NCBI GenBank assembly: GCA_044225505.1
Contig: JBGAIN010000005.1
Location: forward strand, 114,564 to 134,563
Source: Limisphaerales bacterium
GTDB taxonomy: Bacteria > Verrucomicrobiota > Verrucomicrobiia > Limisphaerales > SIBE01
Direction of reading: 5' to 3'
Length of the DNA stretch: 20,000 nt
Shown here: one piece after another, positions 1,551 to 15,110 of the stretch
Position numbering within the stretch: the first letter of the stretch is position 1
Layout of the letters: each line of letters starts with the position of its first letter
The notes under the pieces: generated by a model
Told to the model about the DNA's origin: nothing
Seen by the model: the letters and a program-made list of their open reading frames with translations, nothing else
Database searches by the model: none
Made by a program: the position numbers and the translations under genes

Positions 1551-2582
1551 TTAAGGGGACGCAGTAACCCGTTCGGTCGATTCCACGAGCTGCAAGGCGT
1601 GCCCGTCCGGATCGCGAAGAAACACGCGTCGTGGCAATTTCGTATCGCGGACGGTGTTCATCTTGTGGGAAACGAACGTCAATCCGGCATGGCGGCACGC
1701 CTCGATAAGAGTGTCATAACTTTCAACCAAAACTGGGATGGACCAGAAAGTGAGATCCCGGGCATTCGCTTCGGCCGAAAGCGCCCGCCCTCCGGGTGGA
1801 GCGATGTACTCGAGGAACTCAACGCCTGGGCCGCGGGGCGCGCGGAGAGCGGTAATATGTAGCCGCGCCCCAAACACGAGGTTCAAATGCTCCTGCTCTG
1901 GCCCAAAGTTCTCGCTTGTTCCGACGACTCTGAAACCGAGCTTGTCTCGGTAAAACGCGAGGCTCTTGGCGGTATCTGAAACTACGATCGCGGAATGGTC
2001 GATGCCGAGAAACAAAGGTCCGCTCTCCGTCTGCCATTTGGGATCTCCTTTACCTGGTGGGAATGAGATGATCTCAAGCACGTGGGCTTCCGAGTCTTGG
2101 AAGTAAAAGGCCTTGATTCCAGCCGCGTTCGTGTTCCATTCCGGGAGTGTTTGCGGTGCCGTCGAGACGTGCTGGACTCGATGACGGAGCAAGTGTTGAT
2201 AAGCTTCGTCCATATCGCGCACGACAATTGCTAGGTGCTGAAACCAAAGATCGAAACTCCGGGAATCCTGCGGGACGGGCCGGCCCTTTTGATTGAGGTG
2301 CTCGGTGAGCGTAATGCGCTCCTTTCCCAGAGCGAGCTCGACAGTTCTCGATTCGGTGTTCGCCAATCCGAGAAGCGCATCTGCTTCGCCCAGCGAAGAT
2401 CGGCTTTCGGAGACGACCACGAAAGGGAGCACGTTCGTGTAGAAGTTTAGTGCGCGATCGAGTTGCCCGACCGTCAATCCAATCGCGCCGACCTCGAGCG
2501 CCGCCGCGCTGCTTGAAGGCGGCGCCGAGAGTGCCAACGTCGATAGCACCAAGGCAAATCTCAGGAGTCGAAAGAGCGTCAT
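1551..2582 (-). CDS. VOC (glyoxalase/bleomycin-resistance-like) family protein, two VOC domains, N-terminal signal peptide
   Basis: Repeated VOC patterns: IGLTVGQLDRALNFY, WFQHLAIVVRDMD, AFYFQDSEAHVLEI, IDHSAIVVSDTAKSLAFYRDKLGF, VEFLEY and FLRDPDGHALQL. The N-terminus is basic then hydrophobic, with an AAA cleavage region. Confidence 0.88.
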   Translation of the reverse strand: MTLFRLLRFALVLSTLALSAPPSSSAAALEVGAIGLTVGQLDRALNFYTNVLPFVVVSESRSSLGEADALLGLANTESRTVELALGKERITLTEHLNQKGRPVPQDSRSFDLWFQHLAIVVRDMDEAYQHLLRHRVQHVSTAPQTLPEWNTNAAGIKAFYFQDSEAHVLEIISFPPGKGDPKWQTESGPLFLGIDHSAIVVSDTAKSLAFYRDKLGFRVVGTSENFGPEQEHLNLVFGARLHITALRAPRGPGVEFLEYIAPPGGRALSAEANARDLTFWSIPVLVESYDTLIEACRHAGLTFVSHKMNTVRDTKLPRRVFLRDPDGHALQLVESTERVTASP

Positions 2583-2647
2583 AGGAGAGAATCCGGGTAG
2601 ATTGGGAACTATAGCCGCTCGCGAGCCGCCATGCGAGCGCCGATGGG

Positions 2648-4294
2648 TTAGACCGTTATGAGCGGCTCCGCAACTGGGTGGGGTCTCGTTCTCGCGTCAA
2701 GAGCAGGTAAGGCGTGGGACATTATATTCGCACCGAGCCGCGCGAGAATGTGATCCCCGACGCGAAGGGCGTTCGCCATGATTGTCAAGGCCGGGTTCAC
2801 TGCCGCGCTCGACGCAAAGAAACTGGCATCCACGACGTAGAGATTGTCTAATTCGTGCTCGCGGCATTGGGAGTTCAAGGCAGACGTGCGGGGATCGTTT
2901 CCAAAGCGAATCGTTCCATTCTGATGGGCTACACCCGCCAGCGGAATGCGCTGGCCTGCATACAGACTGCGTGCGAACAACCCTTCGTGACATTCGTGTC
3001 CGTGGACTCCGCACTTCGTTTGTTGTTTTAGGAGTTCCTTAAGCTTTTCCATCAGGCGGCGGTGTCCCTCCTCGTTATTGGGACGGTAAGAGAGCACGAT
3101 CCTGCCGTCGCGATCCAGCGTAACGCGGTTATTCGGATCGGGGAGATCTTCGGAGGTAAGCCAAAAGTCGAGAGAATGCTTGCCCATCAGATCGAGCGTC
3201 CAGCGTGGTGCGATCGCTGGGGCTCCAGCGCGGAGGGTGTCTGCGTCGAGCTTGCCAACGAACGAGATGTGCCCCATCGGGAATGCCCAGTCGGGAGCTT
3301 CCAGATAAAAGTCATTTATCGACAGTGTCTTTTGGAACACCGTGGGATTCGGACATTTCGAGATCGCCATCAAGACGGAATTCACGTGGCCCATATAATG
3401 CCGCCCGACGACGTCTGAACCATTGGCCAGACCCCGCGGGTGTTTCTCATTGGCGGAACGCAGCAGCAACGCTGCAGAGTTGATGGCCCCGCACGCCACA
3501 ACCACGATATCCGCGCTCAACGCCAGGGTTTCTTCGCGTCGTTTTACATGTACTTTGGTGACGGTGGTCCCTGCCGCGTTCGTCTCCAGCCGGGTCACCT
3601 GAGCTTCGGTCATGAGAGCGACGTTGGGAAATTCAAGCGCAGGATCGACGCAGCAAACTTGCGCATCGGCTTTGGCGTTGATCAGGCAGGGGTGTCCGTC
3701 GCACGTGCTACAGCGGATGCAGGCGCTTTTGTGCGGATTGTTCTCGTCCAACATCACGCCCAATGGCGTGTGGAACGGTCGGAGACCTGCGGCGGTCAAA
3801 TCGTCACTGAGCTGTTGAATTCGCGGCTCGTGGCTGATGGAGGGATAGGGATAGGGGGTGCTCCGCCAAGGTTCGACCGGATCCTCACCTTTCTGCCCAT
3901 GAACGTGATAGAGCCGTTCTGCTTCCGCATAGTAAGGCTCAAATTCATCGTAACCGACGGGCCAAGCGGGAGAGATGCCGCCATGATGACGAATTTCGCC
4001 GAAATCCTCTTTGCGCAAGCGAAATAGAGCAGAACCGTAAAACTTCGTGTTCCCGCCGACAAAATAGTTTGTGTGCGGATGAAGATCGCGACCGTCCCGG
4101 TCTTGCCAGACTTCTTTCGTGTTGTAGCGGCCTTCGGCGTTAACCGCTTTTGTGCTCCAATTCTCGCGCTCGCGCGGAACATACGAGCCGCGCTCAATGA
4201 GGAGGATCTTCTTGCCGCTCGACGCTAAGCGATAGGTCAGTGTGCCACCGCCTGCACCTGACCCGATGATGATCACGTCGTAATGATTATTCAT
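2648..4294 (-). CDS. GMC family FAD-dependent oxidoreductase with Cys-rich (putative Fe-S) motif
   Basis: YDVIIIGSGAGGG Rossmann motif directly after ATG 4294. Also VGGNTKFYG, VVVACGAINSAALLLRS, HQNGTIRFG, NLYVVDASFF and NPALTIMANALRV, plus CIRCSTCDGHPC. Confidence 0.93.
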   Translation of the reverse strand: MNNHYDVIIIGSGAGGGTLTYRLASSGKKILLIERGSYVPRERENWSTKAVNAEGRYNTKEVWQDRDGRDLHPHTNYFVGGNTKFYGSALFRLRKEDFGEIRHHGGISPAWPVGYDEFEPYYAEAERLYHVHGQKGEDPVEPWRSTPYPYPSISHEPRIQQLSDDLTAAGLRPFHTPLGVMLDENNPHKSACIRCSTCDGHPCLINAKADAQVCCVDPALEFPNVALMTEAQVTRLETNAAGTTVTKVHVKRREETLALSADIVVVACGAINSAALLLRSANEKHPRGLANGSDVVGRHYMGHVNSVLMAISKCPNPTVFQKTLSINDFYLEAPDWAFPMGHISFVGKLDADTLRAGAPAIAPRWTLDLMGKHSLDFWLTSEDLPDPNNRVTLDRDGRIVLSYRPNNEEGHRRLMEKLKELLKQQTKCGVHGHECHEGLFARSLYAGQRIPLAGVAHQNGTIRFGNDPRTSALNSQCREHELDNLYVVDASFFASSAAVNPALTIMANALRVGDHILARLGANIMSHALPALDARTRPHPVAEPLITV

Positions 4295-4465
4295 GCGCAG
4301 ATGGGTCGCCTCGCGACACAGCTCCTTACAGAGAATCGCAGAGGCAAGTGGCCGTGCCCAAAGGCAAGAGAATTCAGCCGATAGCGTCACCGCTGCTTCG
4401 ATCGCCTCGTGTCAGGAATGTCCGCTGCGCACGACACACTGGCACGTGCATACGCCTGCGTTGCT

Positions 4466-5233
4466 ATGAAAATGCTCCTTCAACCGAATCGACTACTGAC
4501 TCATCCGTCGGACACTTATCAAATCCGGCTCGCGAAAAACCTTGATGATATCCAGGCAGCGCAGCGTTTGCGCTTCATGGTCTTCAACCTCGAACTCGGT
4601 GAGGGCTTGCAGGAATCTCTACAGACTGGACTCGACGCAGATCCTTATGACGCTGTCTGTGATCATTTGCTGGTGGAGCATGTGCCTTCCGGGGATATCG
4701 TAGGAACGTATCGCCTGCAAACTGGGACAGTGGCCGGTTCGCGACTGGGGTATTACAGCGCGGAGGAGTTTGACTTTCGACCTTATGAACCACTGCGTTC
4801 CGAGTTAATCGAGCTGGGCAGAGCCTGCGTGCACCGCGAGCATCGCAATCTCCTGGTGCTCGGGCTGCTTTGGAAGGGCATCGCCCAATACGCTGCTCGA
4901 CGCGGGGCGCGGTATTTGTGCGGCTGCAGTTCGTTGACCTCTCAAGACCCGGCCGAAGGTGCATCCATTTACGCGGAGCTCTGTCGGCGACACCAGGCAC
5001 CACCGCCGTTGCGAACTCAACCTTTGCCACGCTATGCGTGCCCACTCGATCGACTCGCTAGTGAGAACGCAAAGGTTCCAAAGCTCCTAAAAGCCTATCT
5101 GACAATCGGTGCCAAAATATGCGGTCCTCCCGCTATCGATCGTCGTTTTCGAACCATCGACTTCTTAACACTGCTTGATTTGGAATCGCTGCCAGCGATC
5201 GTCCGCGAGCGCTTTACCAGCACGGACCTCTGA
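4466..5233 (+). CDS. OlsB-like GNAT N-acyltransferase (ornithine/amino-acid lipid synthesis type)
   Basis: AAQRLRFMVFNLELG, DADPYDAVCDHLLV, VGTYRL, YSAEEFD, ELGRACVHREHR, YLCGCSSL and PKLLKAYLTIGAKICGPPAID..F.TIDF are typical of the OlsB/Acetyltransf_5 family. Start is 4466 or 4472. Confidence 0.88.
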   Translation: MKMLLQPNRLLTHPSDTYQIRLAKNLDDIQAAQRLRFMVFNLELGEGLQESLQTGLDADPYDAVCDHLLVEHVPSGDIVGTYRLQTGTVAGSRLGYYSAEEFDFRPYEPLRSELIELGRACVHREHRNLLVLGLLWKGIAQYAARRGARYLCGCSSLTSQDPAEGASIYAELCRRHQAPPPLRTQPLPRYACPLDRLASENAKVPKLLKAYLTIGAKICGPPAIDRRFRTIDFLTLLDLESLPAIVRERFTSTDL

Positions 5234-5239
5234 TTGACG

Positions 5240-6061
5240 ATGCTTCGATCGATGGCCCAGCTCTTTCGCATTACCGCACGCGGTGCGGCATTGCTAGTCA
5301 CGTTGGGATGGGCTGCGTTCCTCCATGGTTATCAGGTTTGCCGTCAACCGAGCTTAGGATCGGTCTCAACACGGTCGGAATGGCTGCACAAAATCTGCCA
5401 GAGGCTTATCAAAGTCTTAGGGGTTCAACTGCATGTCCGCGGCCCGGTGCCTCGCCAGGGGCTCCTCGTGAGCAATCATCTGGGGTATCTGGACATATTG
5501 GTGCTTGCGGCGACAACGCCGTGCCTCTTTGTGTCCAAAAGCGAGGTTGAGACCTGGCCTCTGTTTGGATGGTTCGCCCGGCGTGCCGGCACGCTCTTCG
5601 TGCAGCGGGGAAAGCGCTCGGATACTGCCCGGGCCTCGTCCTTGATGACAGCGGCCCTGCATCAAGGAGCCCTCGTGGTTTTGTTTCCGGAGGGCACAAG
5701 CACGAATGGCTTCTCGGTCCTGCCGTTTAAGTCGGCGCTGCTCCAACCGGCGATCGAGCCGGGTCGAATGTTAACGGTCTGCAGCCTGGAATATCATGTG
5801 TCCGGGGGGAATGCCGCGACCGATGTTTGTTACTGGGGTGAAATGACGTTGGTACCGCACCTCCTGCGGTTGCTGGGGCTACGGGAGATCCGTGCCAGGA
5901 TCACTTACGCGCCCTGGGAACCGGAGTTATCCCAAAAGAGTCTCCATCGAAAAGATCTGGCACGCACGCTGCATTCGGAGGTCGTCCGGCTGCACGCCAT
6001 GGGACAACGACAAGCCGCAGAACTGCCGAGCCATTCTCTCGCCTGCCACGCCGTGTCTTAG
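5240..6061 (+). CDS. Lysophospholipid/lyso-aminolipid O-acyltransferase (PlsC/OlsA family)
   Basis: Catalytic NHLGYLD (NHxxxxD), FVSKSEV..WP..G, GTLFVQR and FPEGTST. It directly follows the GNAT gene. Start could be 5234, 5240 or 5252. Confidence 0.92.
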   Translation: MLRSMAQLFRITARGAALLVTLGWAAFLHGYQVCRQPSLGSVSTRSEWLHKICQRLIKVLGVQLHVRGPVPRQGLLVSNHLGYLDILVLAATTPCLFVSKSEVETWPLFGWFARRAGTLFVQRGKRSDTARASSLMTAALHQGALVVLFPEGTSTNGFSVLPFKSALLQPAIEPGRMLTVCSLEYHVSGGNAATDVCYWGEMTLVPHLLRLLGLREIRARITYAPWEPELSQKSLHRKDLARTLHSEVVRLHAMGQRQAAELPSHSLACHAVS

Positions 6062-6159
6062 GGCTCTTTTCGTCGCTCAGCTCTTCCGCGGATCCTTTGG
6101 GGGCCGTGTAAGGATCTGTCCAAAGGCACGACATAACTGGAAAGATCATCCACTTGCTT

Positions 6160-6594
6160 ATGTCATCCTGCAAAACCAAACGCATCACCAGCTGGACGTT
6201 ACAGATCATAACGGCGGCCATCTTGTTCCAGACGCTCTTCTTTAAGTTCACGGCCGCGGAGGAATCTGTCTATATCTTCACCACGCTCGGAATTGAGCCC
6301 TGGGGACGGATTGTTTCCGGGGTGGTGGAGTTAGTCGCCGTTGTGCTCCTGCTCGTGCCGCGGACCGTCGTGATGGGAGCGTTCCTCTCGCTCGGCGTGA
6401 TTTCAGGCGCTCTTTTCAGCCATTTGACCAAGCTCGGCGTCAGCGTTCAGAACGACGGTGGTCTCTTGTTCGGGCTGGCCCTCGTTGTATTTGTAGCGAG
6501 CGTGGCCATCTTGTTTCTGCGACGGGAACAGATCCCAGTTCTGCGGGCGTTGCTACCCGCGTCCGCAGAGCACCACTGCGCGATCCATGATTGA
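6160..6594 (+). CDS. DoxX family membrane protein
   Basis: Four hydrophobic segments. Motifs ILFQTLFFKF, ESVYIFTTLGIEPWGRI..GVVEL, GALFSHLTKLG and DGGLLF. Confidence 0.85.
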   Translation: MSSCKTKRITSWTLQIITAAILFQTLFFKFTAAEESVYIFTTLGIEPWGRIVSGVVELVAVVLLLVPRTVVMGAFLSLGVISGALFSHLTKLGVSVQNDGGLLFGLALVVFVASVAILFLRREQIPVLRALLPASAEHHCAIHD

Positions 6595-6641
6595 ATCCAC
6601 CACGTGCCCGATCTAGTCCCCATCCCCGCTCAACAGGATTT

Positions 6642-7313
6642 ATGACCCCTTCTCTCGAATCTCCCGCCGGTGCAATTTCCGCGGGAGACCCTTTGGCGAA
6701 TCGTGGGAACGCCTCGGCGCGCTGGATCGAGATCGCGTTCCCTAAAACACTGCCAACTCCGTCTGAACCGACGTTGGCGGACGGTGCGCGGATCGTGCAA
6801 GCCGCGATCTCGATACTGGAACAAGGCGAATTGCTCCTCAGTGCGGTTTCCCCGCAATCCTACACCGAACGGCTGCCGATCGCTTTCAACGCCTCGATCG
6901 GTGGCCATTACCGCCACTGCCTTGACCATTTCACCAGCCTCTTCCGCGGCGACGACCAACCGGAGATTGATTATGACCGGCGCGACCGGGACCGCCGCGT
7001 CGAAACCGAGCCTGACTTTGCCCTGCATCTCACCCGATCGATGCGGAAAGAGTTGCAGGATTTGACATCGGAAGATCTTCGCCTGCCCGTTCGCGTCCGC
7101 TGCGCCGTGAGCTATGAGAAAGGACCGTCACCTGTGACGAGTTCCACTCGCGGGCGGGAACTGTCGTATGCCATTGCCCATGCGATTCACCACTATGCGC
7201 TCATTTCGATCATAGCGCGCCTGCTCGAAGTGGCGCTTCCCATCACGTTCGGCGTGGCTCCGTCCACCTTGGCTCATCAAGCAAAGATTGGATCCAGCTC
7301 CACCTCCCGATGA
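6642..7313 (+). CDS. DinB/YfiT-like four-helix metalloprotein
   Basis: SIGGHYRHCLDHF, IDYDRRDRD and RELSY..AHAIHHYALI give the DinB His triad pattern. The ATG at 6642 is preceded by AGGA. Its stop overlaps the next start (ATGA 7310-7313). Confidence 0.85.
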   Translation: MTPSLESPAGAISAGDPLANRGNASARWIEIAFPKTLPTPSEPTLADGARIVQAAISILEQGELLLSAVSPQSYTERLPIAFNASIGGHYRHCLDHFTSLFRGDDQPEIDYDRRDRDRRVETEPDFALHLTRSMRKELQDLTSEDLRLPVRVRCAVSYEKGPSPVTSSTRGRELSYAIAHAIHHYALISIIARLLEVALPITFGVAPSTLAHQAKIGSSSTSR

Positions 7314-8971
7314 GTTCCGCGGCGTTCCCACTCTGGCCGGTCGAATTCCTTCAATGGAGCTTCTTTGCCCAAGCGGTCACCCTTGCGCTTTCGACGTTCG
7401 TGCAAGAGGATGCGCCCACGTTGGCGGCAGCCCTGTTATGGAGCAGTGGCAATCTCCCGATCTCGACCGGATTCATCGGCTGTTCCGTGGGTATCTGGGC
7501 GGGCGACGCCATCCTTTACCTCCTCGCGCGAGCCTTTGGACGTCCGCTGATCGATTGGCGCTGGACACGGCATTGGCTGCGCGGAGATGCGATCGCTCGA
7601 AGCGAGCGGTGGTTCGCTCAACGCGGGGCGTGGCTGCTGTTGACGAGCCGTTTTGTTCCGGGAACTCGATTGCCGACCTACCTGGCGGCAGGCTTTCTGC
7701 GACTTTCCTTTCCGCGATTCCTCGCGCTGACTGGCATCGCGGTGACCCTTTGGACCAGCCTCCTCTTTCTGCTCGTCGGTTGGTTTGGGAAATCAGTTTT
7801 CCAGTGGGCGGGTGAATCACTCAACCAAGGCTGGACTTGGTTGCTCCTCGTCTTGCTCGCGGCCCTGTTCTGGAAAACGTTGACCCGGTTCATGAACCCA
7901 ACCTGGCGCCGCCGCGCCAGTGCGATGTGCGGCCGGCTCCGCCACTGGGAATTTTGGCCGGCCTGGCTATTTTATTTTCCTGTCGCCCTCCAGTACCTTC
8001 GTCTCGTTGTGAAATATCGCGGACTTACCGTGCCCACGGCCGCCAACCCAGGCATCTTCTCCGGCGGTCTCGTTGGCGAATCGAAAGTCACGACGCTTCT
8101 GGATTTGAATGCCTCCAGCCCGGAGTTTACAGCGCAAGCCTGTCTGATCCCGGTTAGTTCCTGCGTCGGCAGACTGGCCTTGCTGGACGCATTTTGTGCA
8201 CGGCTCCCGGTAGCCTACCCTCTCATCCTCAAACCCGACGTCGGGCAACGGGGCGTTGGGGTCAAGTTGATCCAAACGCGTGCGCAAGCGGTCGATTATT
8301 TGAACGCCGTTCAGGCTCCGATCGTGGCGCAGGAATACATTCCCGGTCCGTGCGAAGTTGGGATCTTCTATTATCGGTTGCCAGAAGAAGCCACAGGGCG
8401 GATCTTTGCGATTACCGAAAAAGTCTTTCCGATGTTGGTGGGCGATGGGCGCCAGACGGTCGAGGAACTCATCTGGCAACATCCACGCTGCCGATTCATG
8501 GCCGACACCTACCTTCGTCGTCTCGCTCCGCGCCGCTTCGAAATTCTGGCGACAAATGAAACCTTGCGCCTTGTCGAGGCTGGCAATCATGCCCAAGGAT
8601 GCATCTTTCAGGACGGCCATCACCTCTGGTCGCAACCTCTGCAAGATCGCATCGACTCCATCTCGCAACGGCTGCCCGGCTTTTTCATCGGTCGCTACGA
8701 TATCCGATATCGCGATGCCGCCGATCTCCAAGCCGGGCAAAACTTCAAAATTTTGGAGCTGAATGGGGCGGCCGCCGAAGCGACCAGTATTTACGACGCC
8801 CGCAACTCGCTTGGCACTGCTTACCGAACCCTCTTCCAGCAATGGGAACTCGTCTTCCGAATTGGTGCGGCCAATCGGCAACGAGGCGCCCAACCGACTT
8901 CCCCTCCGTTGCTTTGGCACAAATGGCGCGAGACTTCTCGTCTTGTTCGCACTTATCCCGTGGCCGACTAA
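7310..8971 (+). CDS. Fusion protein: N-terminal DedA/VTT membrane domain + C-terminal ATP-grasp (D-Ala-D-Ala ligase-like) domain
   Basis: DedA motifs: STFVQEDAPTLAA, GIWAGDAILYLLAR, SRFVPGTRLPTYLAAG. ATP-grasp motifs: LILKPDVGQRGVGV, AQEYIPG, GRYDIRY, ILELNG. Confidence 0.9.
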   Translation: MSSAAFPLWPVEFLQWSFFAQAVTLALSTFVQEDAPTLAAALLWSSGNLPISTGFIGCSVGIWAGDAILYLLARAFGRPLIDWRWTRHWLRGDAIARSERWFAQRGAWLLLTSRFVPGTRLPTYLAAGFLRLSFPRFLALTGIAVTLWTSLLFLLVGWFGKSVFQWAGESLNQGWTWLLLVLLAALFWKTLTRFMNPTWRRRASAMCGRLRHWEFWPAWLFYFPVALQYLRLVVKYRGLTVPTAANPGIFSGGLVGESKVTTLLDLNASSPEFTAQACLIPVSSCVGRLALLDAFCARLPVAYPLILKPDVGQRGVGVKLIQTRAQAVDYLNAVQAPIVAQEYIPGPCEVGIFYYRLPEEATGRIFAITEKVFPMLVGDGRQTVEELIWQHPRCRFMADTYLRRLAPRRFEILATNETLRLVEAGNHAQGCIFQDGHHLWSQPLQDRIDSISQRLPGFFIGRYDIRYRDAADLQAGQNFKILELNGAAAEATSIYDARNSLGTAYRTLFQQWELVFRIGAANRQRGAQPTSPPLLWHKWRETSRLVRTYPVAD

Positions 8972-8976
8972 CTCCT

Positions 8977-9948
8977 ATGTGCACCGTCACCTTCGTTGCG
9001 CTCGCTCGAGGATATATCGTCGGCATGAACCGCGACGAAAAGCTGGCGCGCGCGCGCGCGTTGCCGCCAGCCGTCGCTACTCTTGGCCGCGACCTCGCCG
9101 TGTTTCCCAAGGAGTCCAGCGGCGGCACTTGGATTGGCGTCAACAGTTGGGGAACAACGGTGGCCTTGATCAACTGGTATGCCGTTCCTTGTCGCGTCGA
9201 ACAGGGCGCGATCAGCCGGGGTGAAGTAGTCAAGAGTGCGCTCGCCCATTGTGGCGCGGCCGCGAGCGAGTCATTTCCGCCCGGCTTGCCCTTGGAAAGC
9301 ATCAAATTCTAGCCCCATGCAACCCCTCTCCGCTGGACAATCTTTGTCCATCGCCCCGGTTGCCGGGCTCCCTTCTTGACCGCCGTTCCCGCCGTCGTCA
9401 TTGATCCAGATTCTCGCGTGAACCCGTTTCGTCTGCTCGTTTTTGCTTGCCTCGTTTTTGCACAGGCGCAAGCCCAGGTCGTCGAATGGCAATGGGACCT
9501 TCACCGGTTGCATCGAGTCGATCATCCGTGGCTTACGAACACCTGGATTTCTTCTGGATTCGACGAGCCCGGCGCCCAGATCAGCCGTGGACACACCTTT
9601 GCCACGGCTCGTCCGCGCTTTGGATCACAACCTCGTGTTGCGCTCCGTCGACTGCATCGGTCGCACGTGCCCGAGCCTGGCCCTTACTCTACTTGCATGC
9701 ACCGAAACGACGCCGCCACCGTGAGCTACACTGAAATCTCGGTCTCCAAACGCCTGGCAAAAGTCTATTATGCTCCCGGCCCGCCCTGTTCGACGGAAGC
9801 ACTTCCGGTGACACAACTGAGATTGTGCCCGATGATTCGAGCGAATGTGGCGTCCGTTGCGGAAGCACCGCTCGTCAGAAACCGAGGTGAGAGATCTCTC
9901 CAGGATCGCCTTAAAGGACTATGTAACACCTTTGTAGATAAGCACTAA
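8977..9948 (+). pseudogene. NRDE/TANGO2 family (Ntn-hydrolase-like) gene interrupted by an in-frame TAG (9310-9312) within an apparent insertion
   Basis: N-half: MCTVTF...MNRDEK, GGTWIGVN, ALINWY, SRGEVV. C-half in the same frame: NPFRLL, WISSGFDE, LHRSH, YSTCMHRNDAATVSYTEI. The TAG at codon 112 is the only stop between them. Confidence 0.75.
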
Positions 9949-10058
9949 CGCTGAGCTAGGGCGTGCCTCAGCCTTTTGGGCAACCGCCTTTTCTCGTGCA
10001 ACTGCCACATGGTTAGAGGGTTATGCCTCAGGATACGGCGCCGTTCAGCCCTTCTACC

Positions 10059-10090
10059 CGCACGCTAAACGCACGCTAAACGCACGCTGA
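10059..10090. repeat. 11-bp tandem repeat CGCACGCTAAA, about 3 copies
   Basis: Exact copies at 10059-10069 and 10070-10080, then a variant CGCACGCTGA at 10081-10090. Confidence 0.9.
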
Positions 10091-10109
10091 CCCCACGTGC
10101 ACGTGGGGT
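10090..10109. repeat. Perfect 20-bp palindrome ACCCCACGTGCACGTGGGGT
   Basis: The sequence equals its own reverse complement. It is the centre of a longer imperfect inverted repeat at about 10058-10141. Confidence 0.92.
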
Positions 10110-10337
10110 TCGCTTGAGCTTGGGGTGTGCGTATCGTGTGGAGCCTGCGTTAGACCCTGCGATCGAGGGTATCGGTGGATTCGTTAAGGAGCTTGAAAAG
10201 CGCGGTCAGCTCAGCCTGGCGAAAACCCGGGCGGCGTATCGCATGGGTAGCTTGGGGCCGGGTCGGTCCCATCCTGAAAGCGGTCGCAAGCTGACTTTAG
10301 GGGTGCCAGTAAGAGCGACAATATGAAGAACTCGCTC

Positions 10338-10991
10338 TCATTTCGGCGCTCGGACCACGGTCAGGTCGTCGAATCGAATAGGGGTTCCGGCATAGGGGCT
10401 GCCAAAGATAGCCGCACGGCCGGGAGGCAGCTCTTGCGTCTCCTCGGTCCGGATGAGCCAGTCCGAAGGTTCAGGAGTGCCTGCCATCCAGACCTTCCCG
10501 CGAATCTCCCATGCCGAGCCAGACTTGAGGACCTGGATTTTAAGGTGCGTCCATTGGCCAGACTGCCAGCGGAATGGTTGATTGGTCTTGGCCACGTCCC
10601 CACGGTAAAGCTCGATCAGATTCTTGGCCGGACTAACTTGAAGCCGATAACCGCCGGCGCCGTTGACCCCGACGGCAAACGTGGGAGCGCGTCGACCTTT
10701 GGCAAGTCCGAAAACTCGGGCTGAGGCCGCGATTCCTTCCGATTCTGTAGGGCCGAAGAGCAAGCCGAAACTGTCCAAGGGAGCACCTGGCAGTTCGAGA
10801 AATCGATTGTTCTGCTGCTCCTTGACGACGAAAGCGCCGTCCAGGACTAACAGTTCGTCGGGGACTTTGTCCAATTCGGCCGATTGCAGGTCGTTCATGT
10901 AGAGTGTTTGGCTCTCTTGCGCCACGCTGTTCCAAGTCGAGGAAGCGAGCAGCAAGGCCATGACAGATCGAATTATCCAAAGCGGCGACAT
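10338..10991 (-). CDS. Secreted hypothetical protein, probable beta-sandwich (ConA/LamG- or DUF1080-like)
   Basis: Signal-peptide-like N-terminus ending SVA/QE. Beta-strand-rich, Trp-containing body (WTHLKIQV, IRGKVW..GTPEP..W, FDDLTV). AGGAG lies 8 nt upstream of ATG 10991. Confidence 0.7.
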   Translation of the reverse strand: MSPLWIIRSVMALLLASSTWNSVAQESQTLYMNDLQSAELDKVPDELLVLDGAFVVKEQQNNRFLELPGAPLDSFGLLFGPTESEGIAASARVFGLAKGRRAPTFAVGVNGAGGYRLQVSPAKNLIELYRGDVAKTNQPFRWQSGQWTHLKIQVLKSGSAWEIRGKVWMAGTPEPSDWLIRTEETQELPPGRAAIFGSPYAGTPIRFDDLTVVRAPK

Positions 10992-11016: not shown

Positions 11017-14000
11017 TCAATCGTTTCTTAAAGCCTGCAACAAAGAGCCGCGCAGGGCAAGTTGCGTGGCGGCCCACGTCCAGATCAGGCCGCTGCCAAA
11101 GACGGCTCCCAGCGTCAACGACAGCGAGCGGAAGGGCAACTCCGCGCCCGGAGACAAGATGGTGGGTAATACCGCCACCAGGGCTGCGACCGTGCCAATG
11201 AGCAATCCCAGTAGCAGCAGGGCGCCATGTTCGGAAAGCACCAGCCAACGCAAGGCGCGTGCCCGGAACCCAACGGCAATGAGGAGCGCCAGTTCACCGC
11301 GGCGCTCGAGCACATTCCGTAACACCACGACCCCCAAGCCCACGCTGCCCAAGAGCAAACCGAGACCCCCAAGAACCTGGAAAGTGTTCAAATAGGTGTT
11401 TTGAACTGCGTTAAAGGCTTCCAGCCGGCGCACGGTCGGGGTGAACTGCACGCCGTAATCCTGCGTGGCGCGGGACAAGGTCGCCGCTACGGCATCGATC
11501 TGAGCGCGATCGTAAGGTTGCACGTCGACCAGGAAGGCTCGGTATCCGCTCTCATTAGAAAAGCGTTCGAGGAAGGCCTTCTCGGAAATGACCAGGCTGC
11601 CTTGCAGGATCGAATTAGCCACGGCGCCGACGAGCCGGACCTTAAACTCGCGGCCTCGATCATCTTTGTAGTTGAGGGTATCCCCGAGTTTCTTCCCAAG
11701 CGCCCATTGGATGGAAGCGGCATCTCCAATGGCGGGCACACTGCCGTCCGGCTCGAGCTGGTCGAGCAGCAGCCATGGGTTAGCGTCGCCAGCGTGGTCG
11801 ACCGTTTGAGCAAACGTGAATGCCTGGCGTTCCGCCAGGCGTTCCGCGCGGACCCCAAGGAGGCGCGGCGTTTGCGCCCGGTTCAAGTTGAGACAGCTCG
11901 CGTCGTCGCCATCCCGGACGCGCATGGGAACCACACGCACCCCAGCCAAGTCCGATTCGCTCAGCCCGAAATACTGCCGGCCTTCTTCCGTGTTCAAGTC
12001 GTGGACGATTGGAAAAGAAGATTCTCCGATCAGCGCAAATCCGCCCGTGCCCGACGCCCGTTTCCGAACTCCATCCTGAGATTCGAGGCGGAACACGCCA
12101 ATCGCCGCTACTAAAAAGCTGCCGCAGGCCAGGAGACCAATCGTCGCCAAACTGCGGCGTCTCCGCCGGGCAGCGTTGCGCAGGCCCATGTTCGTTAGAC
12201 TCGGGCGTTCGCTGCTATCGACACTGGTTAACGCTGCGAGACCCGCAGCGGCAAAGCTGAGGCCCGAGATCAGCAAAAGCGCGCCCGCCATAAAAAAGAC
12301 GCCAGGGTTGGACGTTTGCTGGCGGAACCCAGCCCAGCCGATCGCCAGCATGGCGGTGGCGCTCGTCAGCCAGCCCAGCCAGATCCCGCGGCTCGTTCGG
12401 ACATGGTGCGAGGTCTCAGGGTCCGATCCCAAGGAGAGCAAAACGCGGGCAGATTGCCGGGCCTGTTTTCGCACTGTGAGCCAGACGGTGAGCGACGCAA
12501 TGACTGTCCCGCTGATTACTCCGATCGCCAAGGTCGCGGGCGTGGCATGAAAACCAAGAGCGGAAGTGCCAACGGCGGAGCGCCAGAGTGTCGAAAGCCC
12601 GTAAAGCATCGCTCGGGCATAAGCAATTCCTCCTGGAACACCAATCAAGGCGCCGATCGCCGCAAGGCCAATCCCTTCGCCAATCAGGATTCGACGAACT
12701 CTACCGGGCGTAAAGCCCAGGGCGAGCAACGTGCCGATCTCCGTGGCGCGCCGTTCGATACTGAATTGAAAAAGCAGGGCCATGAGCAAGAGGGCGGCAC
12801 CGATGAGGAAGAAACTAAACCCGAGGAAGAGTTGCCCAAAGTCTTGCGCTTGCCCGCTTGCCGCCAAGGCCTGCTCACGCACCGGCAGGAAGCTCAGGCC
12901 GATCGATTCGGGAGCGAGCGAACGGCGAATCGCTTCCGTGACGGCCTGAACGGTGACGTCGGAAGGATAGCGGATAGCCGTGACATTTCCGAAACGATTA
13001 GCCCACATCTGCTGGCCGGCGCTCAAGCGGACAAACGCTTTGGGCGTTCCGCGGTGGTTCTTCCAGTAATCCTCGTCCTTGGGGCGAATGCGATCGAGCT
13101 TGATAGGCAAGGTGCTGTCCCAGTCCCGAGTGCTTTCGGCTTTCTCCAGGCCAGGAAAGTCCGGCATCAAGCTGCGATCGTCGGTCGGGCCAGGCCATTG
13201 AGCAACCGCGCGGATGCGAAAATCGTTGGTGCGCTCTTCCAGGGTGCGAGAAAGTCCGATGACAAAGTACGTCAGGCGCAGCGCGTCACCCGGTTTCGCT
13301 TGTAGATCTTCCGCCAGCCATGGGCTGATGACAATCTCGTCATCCTTCAGATCCGCCGGTACCAGCGGAGGACCAGCGGCCGTCACCATGGAGTAAGGTG
13401 TTGCCCTCTCGCCGACGCGAAGTTCGTTCACAAAGTAAGTCAAAAGGGCGCTGTGGTTCGTCAAGCTGGCGGTGGCCGCCGTCACGATGGGCTCATCCAG
13501 GAAAATGCGGCTGGAGCGCAGCTCGATCCCCTGATGGTCTGGAAGCGGGCGCAGTTCCAGTTCGGCGTCGGCCAGCTGCCAATGCTCCCGTATCTGGGCA
13601 GCGAGCCCTTGGAGGGTCACCCCAGGCAAACCTTGCGCGAGCAGCAAATTGGCGCGATCGGGAAGCTGGAGCTGACGGCTTAAACCTGCCAGATCGAGGA
13701 AAGCGTTGAGCGGAGGCGTTTGGCTCGACTGCAGTCCAAATCGGCCCATTTGAGTGTCCGGTGCAATCCCTCGGACGGTCAGACGCAAAGCGACGGCAAA
13801 ACCCTCCTGTGGCGTGATTGGCGCTTCGCGGGACAAGCGCGACGGCTTGTCGACGCGCAGCAGAACGGAGTCGCCGACCTTAACCTTAAGCTGATCTGCA
13901 AGGGCAGGGTTTAGGATAACGTCGTCGGCGCTCGCTGGCAGTGGGAACTGCACCGGCCCGAGCCCGAGCTGCCAGAACTCAGGCGTAACGCCAAGCACTT

Positions 14001-14319
14001 GGACGTGGTTGGCGCGGGCCGAACCGTCTGCGGACGCAGCTGTGCCGGCAAGCTGGAGAGCCGCCACGACCTTCACGCCGGCCCCTTGCGTCAGGTGGCT
14101 GGCCAACTCTTGGCGGAAGAAACGATCGTTCGATGCGAGCGCATAGTGAATCGATCCCAAGCGGCCGAGCGCCAGGTTCCGAAGGCTTTCCCGAACCGAG
14201 TCGCCGACCAAAAGCGCTCCGACGAGCACGGCCGTTCCGACTGCCGATCCTAGAAGCGCGCCCAGATGCGAGCGGGCGTGAAAGACCAGTCCGCGCCAGA
14301 CGAGGGTAGTCGCGTTCAT
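11017..14319 (-). CDS. Large MacB/FtsX-like ABC transporter permease (two fused permease modules, 1100 aa)
   Basis: Two FtsX-type C-terminal signatures (ERRATEIGTLLALGF and ERRGELALLIAVGF), each following a TM helix and a large extracytoplasmic region. Its start overlaps the ATPase stop (ATGA). Confidence 0.9.
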   Translation of the reverse strand: MNATTLVWRGLVFHARSHLGALLGSAVGTAVLVGALLVGDSVRESLRNLALGRLGSIHYALASNDRFFRQELASHLTQGAGVKVVAALQLAGTAASADGSARANHVQVLGVTPEFWQLGLGPVQFPLPASADDVILNPALADQLKVKVGDSVLLRVDKPSRLSREAPITPQEGFAVALRLTVRGIAPDTQMGRFGLQSSQTPPLNAFLDLAGLSRQLQLPDRANLLLAQGLPGVTLQGLAAQIREHWQLADAELELRPLPDHQGIELRSSRIFLDEPIVTAATASLTNHSALLTYFVNELRVGERATPYSMVTAAGPPLVPADLKDDEIVISPWLAEDLQAKPGDALRLTYFVIGLSRTLEERTNDFRIRAVAQWPGPTDDRSLMPDFPGLEKAESTRDWDSTLPIKLDRIRPKDEDYWKNHRGTPKAFVRLSAGQQMWANRFGNVTAIRYPSDVTVQAVTEAIRRSLAPESIGLSFLPVREQALAASGQAQDFGQLFLGFSFFLIGAALLLMALLFQFSIERRATEIGTLLALGFTPGRVRRILIGEGIGLAAIGALIGVPGGIAYARAMLYGLSTLWRSAVGTSALGFHATPATLAIGVISGTVIASLTVWLTVRKQARQSARVLLSLGSDPETSHHVRTSRGIWLGWLTSATAMLAIGWAGFRQQTSNPGVFFMAGALLLISGLSFAAAGLAALTSVDSSERPSLTNMGLRNAARRRRRSLATIGLLACGSFLVAAIGVFRLESQDGVRKRASGTGGFALIGESSFPIVHDLNTEEGRQYFGLSESDLAGVRVVPMRVRDGDDASCLNLNRAQTPRLLGVRAERLAERQAFTFAQTVDHAGDANPWLLLDQLEPDGSVPAIGDAASIQWALGKKLGDTLNYKDDRGREFKVRLVGAVANSILQGSLVISEKAFLERFSNESGYRAFLVDVQPYDRAQIDAVAATLSRATQDYGVQFTPTVRRLEAFNAVQNTYLNTFQVLGGLGLLLGSVGLGVVVLRNVLERRGELALLIAVGFRARALRWLVLSEHGALLLLGLLIGTVAALVAVLPTILSPGAELPFRSLSLTLGAVFGSGLIWTWAATQLALRGSLLQALRND

Positions 14320-15032: not shown

Positions 15033-15110
15033 GTGGCTCAATCTAGACCAGGAATCCGGAGAGCCAAACCAAAAAGGCCGGAAGTAAAGCAGGTTCGGCC
15101 AAGCTGCGCG

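What the first reader, a model, noticed from the sequence alone, without database searches (positions are those of the whole stretch)
4466..9948. Candidate uncharacterised amino-acid/peptide-lipid pathway: OlsB-like GNAT + OlsA/PlsC + DoxX + DinB + DedA-ATP-grasp + NRDE/TANGO2
Seen: six same-strand genes with gaps under 100 nt, including a 6-nt gap, an ATGA overlap and a 5-nt gap. Established: an OlsB-type N-acyltransferase plus an OlsA-type O-acyltransferase suffices to make ornithine lipid. ATP-grasp enzymes form amide bonds from carboxylates, several DedA proteins flip lipids, and NRDE proteins have an Ntn-hydrolase-like fold with an N-terminal Cys. Inference: the operon builds an aminolipid, extends its free carboxyl group with a second amine or amino acid at the membrane, translocates it, and edits or recycles it via NRDE and DinB. 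I know of no characterised pathway with this gene set.
Basis: partly seen in the sequence, partly recalled or inferred. Interest (0 to 1): 0.85.

Follow-up and report, generated by a model that had tools for sequence, protein, structure and literature searches.

The report
Aminolipid genes joined to membrane ligase cassette
Two genes that build ornithine-type membrane lipids sit beside a widely conserved but undescribed gene set, centred on a membrane protein fused to an ATP-driven amide-forming enzyme and including a relative of the human disease protein TANGO2, which probably alters the head group of those lipids.

Summary
The six same-strand genes and their junctions are real. One point is wrong: the NRDE/TANGO2 frame is not open. 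A TAG at 9310-9312 lies inside a 117-nt insertion that near-identical strains in two other studies lack.

Comparative data support a functional link. DoxX, DinB, the DedA::ATP-grasp fusion and NRDE stay together in most of 64 related loci. OlsB/OlsA or an OlsF-like gene lies next to them, in different gene orders, in records labelled as six phyla. Some genomes fuse NRDE, an alpha/beta-hydrolase, DedA and the ATP-grasp into one protein. Every ligase-bearing genome in a 201-genome class sample (16 of 16) also has an OlsB- or OlsF-type synthase, as do 19 of 21 in a second phylum.

The ligase domain folds like the cyanophycin-synthetase G domain, GshF, LysX and RimK, which add amino acids to a free carboxyl end.

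Best reading: an ATP-dependent ligase that extends the aminolipid head group and is coupled to flipping, with NRDE as a lipid amidase. The chemistry is untested. I found no paper describing the module. This scan has noted it before on other DNA.

The parts
4466..5233 (+). OlsB-like GNAT N-acyltransferase. The ORF opens at GTG 4409; ATG 4466 fits where homologues begin to align.
   Evidence: PF13444 4.7e-28. Best NCBIfam match is OlsB NF052554, 2.6e-42 and 145 bits, below the equivalog cut-off of 350. Homologue matches start at query residues 21-36.
5234..6061 (+). OlsA-like lyso-aminolipid O-acyltransferase (TTG 5234 or ATG 5240).
   Evidence: PF01553 1.4e-22. NF052552 OlsA 9.1e-43, 146 bits, below the cut-off of 300. 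The translation holds H-x4-D (NHLGYLD).
6062..6153 (.). The only sizeable intergenic gap of the cluster (92-98 nt). In close relatives this place holds two more genes.
   Evidence: letters. L036 and L019 have a CoaB-like gene and an AhpC/TSA-YHS gene here. No promoter- or terminator-like site in the gap.
6154..6594 (+). DoxX-family small membrane protein.
   Evidence: PF13564 27.8 bits against cut-off 26.3. The hydropathy scan gives four overlapping hydrophobic windows, about three separate stretches. Present near the ligase in 33 of 57 loci with enough upstream flank and in Vibrio aquimaris.
6591..7313 (+). DinB/YfiT-fold protein. The conserved domain starts near 6768; the true start is uncertain (TTG 6591 or ATG 6642).
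   Evidence: DinB_2 6.3e-4, below the cut-off. 45 of 49 aligned homologues match DinB_2. Model pLDDT 95.1. Foldseek gives TM 0.6-0.7 to 3gor, 2qe9, 1rxq (YfiT) and 3dka, with ClbS, mycothiol S-transferase and BstA lower in the list. Invariant H50, H138, H141, H142, R72, R74, E131 (numbered from 6768).
7310..7909 (+). DedA/VTT membrane domain of the fusion protein (residues 1-200).
   Evidence: PF09335 1.3e-15, 58.4 bits. Best NCBIfam match is the undecaprenyl-phosphate transporter UptA, 1.8e-12, far below its cut-off. Near-invariant E33, D34, D66, R114, R120. Hydrophobic stretches at 54-73, 136-161, 177-195.
7910..8971 (+). ATP-grasp carboxylate-amine ligase domain of the fusion (residues 201-553). 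It opens with an aromatic, conserved EFWP-W-FY-PV stretch.
8977..9312 (+). NRDE/TANGO2-like gene, N-terminal part, ending at an in-frame TAG (9310-9312). Cys2 and the NRDE motif are present.
   Evidence: PF05742 1.8e-8. Stop seen. C2, N18, R19, D20, E21 are invariant in 43 homologues.
9297..9413 (+). 117-nt insertion specific to this assembly or strain. It carries the TAG.
   Evidence: Skipped by DNA contigs of X4 and X2, two studies, 99% or more alike. Absent from 12 homologues. Unique in the own genome. A 40-nt piece has 0 exact matches in metagenome contigs.
9414..9948 (+). NRDE/TANGO2-like gene, C-terminal part. It is in frame with the N-part and aligns to homologues. It holds a further 15 extra nt near 9436 and a C-terminal tail of about 40 residues.
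   Evidence: No Pfam match on its own.

Best explanation
The cluster joins an OlsB/OlsA-type pair to a conserved accessory module. The pair makes an acyloxyacyl aminolipid, most likely ornithine lipid. The module acts on that lipid.

The core of the module is one polypeptide, a DedA/VTT lipid-transporter domain followed by a cytoplasmic ATP-grasp domain. I infer that the ATP-grasp activates a free carboxyl group as an acyl phosphate. The most likely carboxyl is the alpha-carboxylate of the lipid's amino-acid head group. The enzyme then joins an amine or amino acid to it at the membrane surface. The DedA domain presents or flips the lipid.

NRDE is an N-terminal-cysteine amidohydrolase of the TANGO2 family. 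It would cut an amide of the lipid or its new head group, for trimming, reversal or recycling. DinB/YfiT is a metal-dependent helper. DoxX, with an exported YHS (seleno)protein in relatives, is a membrane and periplasmic partner of unknown, possibly redox, role.

Shown here: gene content, folds, conserved residues, synteny, fusions, and genome-level nesting within synthase-bearing genomes. Inferred: substrate, product, direction of transport, and the role of each helper.

In this assembly NRDE is interrupted, so the module may run here without its amidase. Near-identical strains have it whole.
For: 1. Module conservation. Each count covers only the loci with enough flank. DinB is near the ligase in 48 of 59 loci, NRDE in 40 of 49, DoxX in 33 of 57.

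2. Link to aminolipid synthases in shuffled orders.
- OlsB-OlsA directly upstream in L008, L019, L020, L029, L036.
- OlsB-OlsA followed by DinB and/or NRDE and then the ligase in the four MAGs titled Planctomycetota (L049, L052, L054, L057, L061).
- OlsB-OlsA followed by a triple fusion in Fodinibius (L048) and Thermoanaerobaculia (L055).
- Convergent or divergent pairs in L044 and L064.
- Vibrio aquimaris: DedA | ATP-grasp | DinB | NRDE | YHS | DoxX | OlsF-like, all packed on one strand.

3. Fusions. Among the best 150 cluster representatives of the ligase domain: 84 DedA-grasp, 25 hydrolase-DedA-grasp, 9 hydrolase-grasp, 2 NRDE-hydrolase-DedA-grasp, 30 grasp alone or fragments. P0155 starts with Met-Cys and keeps the NRDE motif.

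4. Nesting. In the 201-genome class sample, 16 genomes have the ligase. Ten of them have an OlsB-like gene. The other six have a full-length OlsF-like gene (1e-112 to 1e-125). The rate is 55-56 of 185 among the rest. In the 42-genome class reached from the L049 MAG, 19 of 21 ligase-bearing genomes have such a gene against 3 of 21 without the ligase.

5. Fold. The nearest solved relatives all add an amino acid to a free carboxyl end of a peptide, polymer or carrier protein.

6. Precedent. A 2026 review states that taurine transfer to the carboxyl of ornithine lipid is ATP-dependent and that the enzyme's gene is unknown (PMC12971839, passages).

7. TANGO2. A 2026 crystal-structure paper argues that human TANGO2 is a Cys-Ntn hydrolase of fatty-acid derivatives (PMC13044924, passages).
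Against: No lipid, substrate or product was seen; everything about the chemistry is inference.

In 24 of 31 loci with at least 5 kb on both sides, no OlsB/OlsA lies within 10 kb.

In one verrucomicrobial family the module sits between pgsA/pgpA-like phospholipid genes and a MacB-type ABC transporter, not beside a synthase.

Two ligase-bearing genomes of the second class (G209, G231) showed no OlsB/F match. Their completeness is not given.

Related genomes are not independent, so the nesting counts overstate the support.

OlsB and OlsA score well below NCBI's equivalog cut-offs, so the amino acid of the lipid is not established.

Several helpers have thiol or redox relatives: DinB (thiol S-transferases), the YHS (seleno)protein, AhpC/TSA, DoxX. 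A plain head-group ligation does not explain them.

The RNA-library contigs do not cover the gap between OlsA and DoxX.
Confidence: 0.5

Rival explanations
1. A general envelope-lipid module whose substrate is not the aminolipid. The ligase and DedA domain would act on a phospholipid, a polyprenyl phosphate or a lipid A precursor. Under this view the module travels with ornithine-lipid genes only because both answer the same stress, such as phosphate limitation, low salt or cationic peptides.
For: 24 of 31 well-flanked loci lack OlsB/OlsA nearby. In L077, L079 and L080 the module lies between CDP-alcohol phosphatidyltransferase and PgpA genes and a MacB/FtsX ABC pair. The best NCBIfam match of the DedA domain is the undecaprenyl-phosphate transporter UptA, 1.8e-12, far below its cut-off.
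Against: 16 of 16 and 19 of 21 ligase-bearing genomes carry an OlsB/F-type gene, against 30% and 14% of the others. Adjacency to a synthase recurs in different gene orders in several phyla.
Confidence: 0.18
2. An aminolipid turnover or remodelling pathway. The hydrolases (NRDE amidase, and the alpha/beta-hydrolase in relatives) take the lipid apart. The ATP-grasp re-ligates or salvages a piece. Nothing new is added to the head group.
For: Two of the recurrent partners are hydrolase folds: NRDE and Abhydrolase_1 fused in 36 of 150 representatives. In P0155 the hydrolase lies between a hydrophobic stretch and DedA, so it may face the periplasm (inference).
Against: Breakdown needs no ATP-dependent ligase, yet the ligase is the most conserved and the defining member. 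The window's lineage has no hydrolase domain in the cluster.
Confidence: 0.12
3. A thiol or redox system. The GshF-like ATP-grasp makes a small cysteine-containing peptide, or a thiol-bearing lipid head group. DinB acts as its S-transferase. DoxX, the YHS (seleno)protein and AhpC/TSA keep it reduced across the membrane.
For: Structural neighbours of DinB include mycothiol and bacillithiol S-transferases, at weak E-values. A YHS (seleno)protein (NF041384, 126-167 bits against cut-off 70) lies just upstream of DoxX or DinB in about 40 loci and in Vibrio. An AhpC/TSA fusion and a CoaB-like cysteine-ligase homologue occur in L019, L020, L036, and the CoaB-like gene also in L035. GshF is among the top fold matches of the ligase.
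Against: The CoaB-like gene is in only 4 of 64 loci. The window itself has neither YHS nor CoaB-like in the cluster. Nothing shows a thiol product. This reading does not explain the tie to OlsB/OlsF unless the thiol is lipid-bound.
Confidence: 0.1
4. A separate, fourth route of aminolipid synthesis. The ATP-grasp N-acylates an amino acid with a free 3-hydroxy fatty acid, as the GH3-type OlsH does with ATP. The fused alpha/beta-hydrolase adds the second chain, as OlsI does.
For: The OlsH/OlsI pathway pairs an ATP-dependent amide former with an alpha/beta-hydrolase-superfamily protein (PMC12493201, passages). Hydrolase-DedA-grasp fusions are common.
Against: The module is nested in genomes that already have OlsB/A or OlsF, and it sits beside them. 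The window lineage lacks the hydrolase. The nearest solved ATP-grasp enzymes activate amino-acid or peptide carboxylates, not fatty acids.
Confidence: 0.05

Closest known systems
OlsB/OlsA two-step ornithine-lipid pathway, and the fused OlsF variant
   Same: The first two genes have these folds and give OlsB and OlsA as their best NCBIfam matches. Relatives of the module sit beside OlsB/OlsA or OlsF-like genes.
   Different: Four more genes follow that are no part of any described ornithine-lipid pathway. Scores are below the equivalog cut-offs, so the amino acid may differ. The genome has a second OlsB-OlsA pair elsewhere (C222).
Vibrio cholerae vca0646-0649 operon (VCA0646 = OlsF2)
   Same: According to the papers, VCA0646 is a functional ornithine-lipid synthase induced at low salt and is the last gene of a putative four-gene operon (PMC12186959, passages). 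The other genes are of unknown function, and vca0646 plus vca0647 together drive cell death on overexpression (PMC11573629, passages). A related replicon of Vibrio aquimaris carries the full module ending in an OlsF-like gene.
   Different: I could not read V. cholerae DNA here. That its operon holds the same families rests on earlier notes of this scan and on the V. aquimaris locus. In Vibrionaceae, DedA and the ATP-grasp are separate genes.
ATP-dependent taurine transfer to ornithine lipid (cerilipin, Gluconobacter cerinus), an orphan activity
   Same: It is an ATP-dependent amide formation on the carboxyl of the ornithine head group, and its gene is unknown (PMC12971839). This is the reaction type an ATP-grasp would perform.
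   Different: No evidence for taurine here. Stand-alone homologues exist in Komagataeibacter, Novacetimonas and Gluconacetobacter. No row named Gluconobacter appeared among the best 120, most of which carry no name.
Cyanophycin synthetase G domain, GshF, LysX/ArgX and RimK (ATP-grasp amino-acid ligases)
   Different: 13-18% identity. Below Pfam's cut-offs. A helical, aromatic N-terminal segment replaces the usual N-domain. Fused to a membrane domain.
MprF (aminoacyl-phosphatidylglycerol synthase fused to a flippase)
   Same: One protein that couples a head-group-modifying enzyme to a lipid-translocating membrane domain. This comparison is recalled, not tested.
   Different: MprF uses aminoacyl-tRNA and a different catalytic fold. 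It acts on phosphatidylglycerol, and its flippase is not a DedA domain.
TANGO2 / NRDE family (human TANGO2, proposed Cys-Ntn hydrolase)
   Same: PF05742 match, Cys2 and the N-R-D-E motif. These are the residues the 2026 structure paper names as catalytic.
   Different: A bacterial member in a lipid-gene context. In this window it is broken by an insertion with a stop. No activity is known for any member.

Membership tests
OlsB (ornithine N-acyltransferase) | GNAT-type Acetyltransf_5 domain over Pfam's cut-off | tested here: met
   PF13444 98.3 bits against 22.4.
OlsB (ornithine N-acyltransferase) | Score over NCBIfam's equivalog cut-off | tested here: not met
   NF052554 145.4 bits against 350; NF052555 135.3 against 320. 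Best match, but not an equivalog.
OlsB (ornithine N-acyltransferase) | Uses ornithine and 3-hydroxyacyl-ACP | not testable with these tools
   Needs an enzyme assay or lipidomics.
OlsA / PlsC-type O-acyltransferase | PF01553 domain with the H-x4-D motif | tested here: met
   80.3 bits against 23. NHLGYLD is in the translation. The motif definition is recalled.
OlsA / PlsC-type O-acyltransferase | Score over NCBIfam's equivalog cut-off | tested here: not met
   NF052552 146.2 bits against 300.
DedA / VTT | VTT domain over Pfam's cut-off, with conserved acidic and arginine residues | tested here: met
   PF09335 58.4 bits against 33.9. E33, D34, D66, R114, R120 are near-invariant. Their roles are recalled from E. 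coli YqjA work.
DedA / VTT | Moves a lipid across the membrane | not testable with these tools
   -
ATP-grasp ligases | ATP-grasp fold | tested here: met
ATP-grasp ligases | Match to a Pfam ATP-grasp family over its cut-off | tested here: not met
   RimK 18.7-19.6 bits against 21. Stand-alone homologues have no Pfam match.
ATP-grasp ligases | Conserved ATP- and Mg-binding residues | tested here: met
   K308, E349, D464, E483, N485 are invariant in 79 sequences. K308 aligns to the VVKP lysine of CphA2. Assignment of roles is recalled.
NRDE / TANGO2 | PF05742 match, N-terminal Cys and NRDE motif | tested here: met
   35.3 bits against 22.6 on residues 1-91. C2 and N18-E21 are invariant in 43 homologues and present in the window.
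NRDE / TANGO2 | Intact reading frame | tested here: not met
   TAG at 9310-9312 within a 117-nt insertion. The frame is intact in near-identical strains.
DinB / YfiT | Four-helix-bundle DinB fold | tested here: met
   Model pLDDT 95.1. All top Foldseek rows are DinB/YfiT proteins, TM 0.5-0.7, although E is only 2e-3.
DinB / YfiT | Pfam DinB_2 over its cut-off | tested here: not met
   20.6-21.5 bits against 24.8 for the window protein. 45 of 49 homologues match at E<=0.01.
DinB / YfiT | Histidine metal site | tested here: inconclusive
   H50, H138, H141, H142 are invariant. Which of them bind metal was not modelled.
DoxX | DoxX_2 over Pfam's cut-off | tested here: met
   27.8 bits against 26.3.

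The most novel reading that the evidence does not exclude
The ligase resembles enzymes that extend a tethered carboxyl end one residue at a time (cyanophycin synthetase, RimK, GshF). On this reading it builds a short peptide on the aminolipid, possibly one with cysteine, giving a lipid-anchored peptide or thiol head group. DedA flips the product. DinB, DoxX and the exported YHS (seleno)protein use it or keep it reduced. NRDE trims it. That would be a new class of bacterial membrane lipid. It would also be the first defined substrate type for the TANGO2 family.
Probability: 0.12. Interest if true: 0.9.

Novelty: new variant of a known kind. Interest (0 to 1): 0.7.

Why it matters
Ornithine-type lipids are widespread phosphorus-free membrane lipids. 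Only hydroxylases and one methyltransferase are known as their modifiers. The gene for the one known ATP-dependent head-group addition (taurine) has been missing since the 1970s.

This module is a candidate for that kind of enzyme. The ligase family has 1131 cluster representatives at E<=1e-30. Carriers include tractable species such as Paracoccus denitrificans.

The module also places a bacterial TANGO2 relative in a defined lipid-gene context, by synteny and by fusion. The function of human TANGO2, mutated in a severe childhood disease, is still debated.

It may also explain the unexplained phenotypes of a Vibrio operon.

Tried and rejected
1. Mobile-element origin of the 117-nt insertion. 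There is no second copy in the own genome and no exact match of a 40-nt piece in metagenome contigs. Its origin is unexplained. An assembly artefact is not excluded.

2. Promoter and terminator scan of 4200-10400. One promoter-like site and 6 terminator-like sites, no more than in shuffles, and none in the 6062-6153 gap.

3. Co-transcription.
- RNA-library contigs of X10 and X11 (one study) cover 4617-5420, 6149-7661 and 9703-10000.
- They bridge the DoxX/DinB and DinB/fusion junctions.
- In both runs a contig begins at 6149.
- Nothing was laid on 5421-6148 or 7662-9702.
- Contigs cannot show transcript ends, and DNA may be present in such libraries.

4. Link to Gluconobacter cerinus. No row named Gluconobacter among the best 120 homologues of the Komagataeibacter protein, most of which are unnamed. 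This is no evidence either way.

5. Komagataeibacter context. The stand-alone ligase sits beside a SAM methyltransferase and an ABC transporter, with no DedA, NRDE or DinB. It may do something else.

6. Rfam found nothing in the window.

7. Complex prediction (NRDE with the ligase domain) was not available, so no test of binding was made.

9. The ESM Atlas gave only unnamed or loosely named ATP-grasp clusters.

10. Record titles of several MAG loci ('uncultured Bifidobacterium', 'Pseudomonadota') do not fit their gene content. I did not use them for taxonomy.

Full report
**What is in the window**

Between 4409 and 9948 the + strand carries six ORFs in a row.
- OlsB stop and OlsA start are 0-6 nt apart.
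- A gap of 92-98 nt precedes DoxX.
- DoxX and DinB overlap by TTGA.
- DinB and the fusion overlap by ATGA at 7310-7313.
- A gap of 5 nt precedes the NRDE gene.

Pfam and NCBIfam give the following.
- OlsB-like GNAT: PF13444, 98 bits. Best NCBIfam match is OlsB, 145 bits against a cut-off of 350.
- OlsA-like acyltransferase: PF01553. OlsA scores 146 bits against 300.
- DoxX_2: 27.8 bits against 26.3.
- DinB_2: weak, 20.6 bits against 24.8.
- A 553-residue protein with a VTT/DedA domain (58 bits) and a weak RimK-type ATP-grasp match (18.7 against 21).
- A TANGO2/NRDE match confined to the first 91 residues of the last gene.

The window is part of a 9.0-Mb, 342-contig genome, 95% complete with 4.7% contamination. 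The labels of the nearest homologues (Verrucomicrobia subdivision 3, Limisphaerales) point to a verrucomicrobial organism. Near-identical DNA occurs in bioreactor and activated-sludge runs.

**The NRDE gene is broken in this assembly**

Translating 8977-9948 gives an in-frame TAG at 9310-9312. Homologues from the 46 loci where a full NRDE frame was read are 233-283 residues long (most 233-263) and start Met-Cys or, in three loci, Val-Cys. Aligned with 12 of them, the window copy has about 39 extra codons that begin at the stop, and a further 4-5 extra codons just downstream.

DNA contigs from two other studies (X4, X2) are 99% or more alike over the whole 5.6 kb. They skip exactly 9297-9413 (117 nt) and lack 15 nt at 9436. 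Across that joint the frame is kept and reads like the homologues. The intact allele therefore exists in the same population.

The insertion has no second copy in the genome. A 40-nt piece of it has no exact match in metagenome contigs.

**The accessory genes form a conserved module**

The fusion protein has more than 2,700 relatives in the 5.8-billion-protein set, most of them about 553 residues long. I fetched 64 loci from species genomes and mapped the window's proteins on them. Counting only loci with enough flank, DinB is present in 48 of 59, NRDE in 40 of 49 and DoxX in 33 of 57.

A further member that the window lacks is an exported YHS (seleno)protein (NF041384). It lies just upstream of DoxX or DinB in about 40 loci. 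In L019, L020, L029 and L036 it is fused to an AhpC/TSA domain. In L019, L020, L035 and L036 a CoaB-like gene (PF04127) is also present. In the window these genes are missing from the 92-nt gap. The genome has YHS genes and one CoaB-like gene elsewhere.

**Link to aminolipid synthases**

OlsB and/or OlsA lie within 10 kb of the ligase in 15 and 14 of the 64 loci respectively. Where both sides have at least 5 kb of flank, the count is only 7 of 31. So in most verrucomicrobial loci the module stands apart from the synthase genes.

The adjacency nevertheless recurs in different orders and lineages.
- OlsB-OlsA-(two genes)-DoxX-DinB-fusion-NRDE in close relatives.
- OlsB-OlsA followed by DinB and/or NRDE and then the fusion in contigs titled Planctomycetota.
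- OlsB-OlsA followed directly by a triple fusion in Fodinibius and a Thermoanaerobaculia MAG.
- Convergent or divergent arrangements in two more loci.
- In cultured Vibrio aquimaris, seven genes are packed on one strand: DedA, ATP-grasp, DinB, NRDE, YHS, DoxX, and a 585-residue OlsF-like gene of 424 bits.
- Salinivibrio has VTT | ATP-grasp | DinB-like | NRDE.
- Paracoccus denitrificans PD1222 has a stand-alone ligase, an alpha/beta-hydrolase and a VTT gene side by side.

**Genome-level nesting**

In a sample of 201 genomes of the window's class, 16 have the ligase domain at E<=1e-20. Ten of these have an OlsB-like gene. The other six have a full-length OlsF-like gene, 1e-112 to 1e-125. Among the 185 without the ligase, 55 match the OlsF family search. 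The count is 56 if G098 is included, whose OlsB-like match carries two TGA stops.

I repeated the test in a second phylum. The centre was the genome of locus L049, a MAG titled Planctomycetota, and 42 genomes were held for its class. Of these, 21 have the ligase and 19 of those match at E<=1e-8. Only 3 of the 21 without the ligase match. In 14 of the 21 ligase-bearing genomes the OlsB-like match lies within 6 kb on the same contig. Related genomes are not independent, so these figures overstate the support, but both samples point the same way.

**Fusions**

The ligase domain alone finds 2,887 cluster representatives at E<=1e-3 and 1,131 at E<=1e-30. I classified the best 150 by BLAST against the window's domains and a hydrolase and an NRDE from the loci. 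This was checked by Pfam on twelve of them.

| Architecture | Count of 150 |
|---|---|
| DedA-grasp | 84 |
| alpha/beta-hydrolase-DedA-grasp | 25 |
| hydrolase-grasp | 9 |
| NRDE-hydrolase-DedA-grasp | 2 |
| grasp alone or fragments | 30 |

P0155 begins Met-Cys and keeps the NRDE motif. A hydrophobic stretch follows, then the hydrolase, DedA and the ligase. The order fits an N-terminal-nucleophile enzyme, which must sit at the N-terminus. It also suggests that the hydrolase faces the periplasm while NRDE and the ligase face the cytoplasm. That topology is an inference.

**Folds**

*Fusion.* The model built on 79 sequences is confident, with pLDDT 94.1 and pTM 0.86. Residues 215-525 align best to the following.

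Foldseek and a PDB profile search give the same families. All of these add an amino acid to a free carboxyl end of a peptide, polymer or carrier protein. K308, E349, R462, D464, E483 and N485 are invariant. K308 aligns with the lysine of the VVKP loop of CphA2. The domain opens with a conserved aromatic stretch (EFWP-W-FY-PV) in place of the usual N-domain. I read this as a membrane-interface element; that is an inference.

*DinB-like protein.* The model has pLDDT 95.1. It matches only DinB/YfiT proteins at the top of the list, with TM 0.5-0.7 but weak E-values. Among them are YfiT, ClbS, mycothiol S-transferase and BstA. Four histidines are invariant.

**How it most likely works**

The most economical reading is as follows. 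The OlsB/OlsA (or OlsF) product has a free alpha-carboxylate and a free amine. It is the substrate of a membrane-embedded carboxylate-amine ligase that extends its head group at the cytoplasmic face. The fused DedA domain presents or flips the lipid. NRDE cuts an amide of the lipid or the new head group.

A precedent for the reaction exists. Taurine transfer to the carboxyl of ornithine lipid is ATP-dependent, and its gene is unknown (review PMC12971839, passages read).

None of this chemistry is shown here. The rivals, with my odds:

| Reading | Odds |
|---|---|
| Head-group ligase on the aminolipid (best) | 0.5 |
| Another lipid is the substrate | 0.18 |
| Turnover or remodelling pathway | 0.12 |
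| Thiol or redox system | 0.10 |
| Independent synthase route | 0.05 |

The redox-type helpers (YHS, AhpC/TSA, DoxX, DinB) are the part my best reading explains least well.

**What is in print**

I ran nine full-text searches. None found a paper that links a DedA or VTT protein, an ATP-grasp enzyme or NRDE to ornithine lipids.

The closest are two papers on Vibrio cholerae, of which I read passages.
- VCA0646 is a second, low-salt-induced OlsF and the last gene of a putative operon VCA0649-0646 (PMC12186959).
- vca0646-0649 are 'four genes of unknown function', activated by HapR. Overexpressing vca0646 and vca0647 together causes cell death (PMC11573629).

That this operon holds the same families rests on earlier notes of this scan and on the V. 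aquimaris locus. I could not read V. cholerae DNA.

A 2026 crystal-structure paper proposes human TANGO2 as a Cys-Ntn hydrolase of fatty-acid derivatives, with unknown substrate (PMC13044924, passages).

Supplements of these papers were not opened. The RNA-Seq dataset of the PNAS paper might bear on co-expression.

**Earlier notes of this scan**

The same module has been reported at least 14 times on other genomes, with the same general reading. Those notes gave me the Vibrio lead. I tested the synteny, the fusions and the fold neighbours independently here.

New in this window:
- the interrupted NRDE allele and its intact counterpart in other samples;
- the direct abutment of OlsA on DoxX, without the YHS or CoaB-like genes;
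- the two class-level nesting counts.

**Verdict**

I found no description of the module in print. It is widespread and testable in tractable species.

Noticed in passing
window 1551-4390 (- strand): A VOC/glyoxalase-type gene (1551-2582) and a GMC oxidoreductase (2648-4390) lie divergent from OlsB. Homologues recur within 10 kb of the module in other arrangements. GMC, at 74-77% identity, is in 8 of 64 loci and VOC in 9 of 64 (for example L031, L032, L037, L038, L041, L053).
   Followed up: partly
L036 7125-8841; L019 3822-5548: Close relatives carry two more genes between OlsA and DoxX. One is a stand-alone CoaB-like (phosphopantothenate-cysteine-ligase-type) gene. The other is an exported AhpC/TSA-Redoxin protein fused to a YHS (seleno)protein domain. 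The CoaB link is curious, given reports tying TANGO2 to CoA metabolism.
   Followed up: partly
window 11017-15041 (- strand); L077, L079, L080, L063: A 1100-residue MacB/FtsX permease and an ABC ATPase lie convergent to the cluster. In three genomes of another family a MacB/FtsX and ABC ATPase pair follows the module directly. In L063 an ABC ATPase homologue precedes the ligase.
   Followed up: partly
own genome C222:156222-157700 (L084 6190-7771): A second OlsB-OlsA pair (OlsB 61% identical to the window's) with no module genes nearby. G026 also has two OlsB-like genes.
   Followed up: partly
window 6149: Contigs from two RNA libraries of one study both begin at 6149, 5 nt before the DoxX TTG. 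This could be a 5' end or mere coverage.
   Followed up: no
window 10059-10097: An 11-nt unit (CGCACGCTAAA) repeated about three times in the 390-nt non-coding stretch after the NRDE gene. No Rfam match in the window.
   Followed up: no
L019 9146-10699: A phage-integrase-family gene directly follows the NRDE gene in this relative.
   Followed up: no
L009, L012, L013, L028, L036, L056 (record titles): Several MAG records titled 'uncultured Bifidobacterium/Bifidobacteriaceae' carry this verrucomicrobia-like module at 53-65% identity. The titles look like placeholders or mislabels.
   Followed up: no
L085 (Komagataeibacter medellinensis plasmid pGXY010) 6079-10668: A stand-alone homologue of the ligase lies on a conjugative plasmid of an acetic-acid bacterium, beside a SAM methyltransferase, an iron-containing redox enzyme and an ABC transporter. 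No DedA, DinB or NRDE is present.
   Followed up: partly
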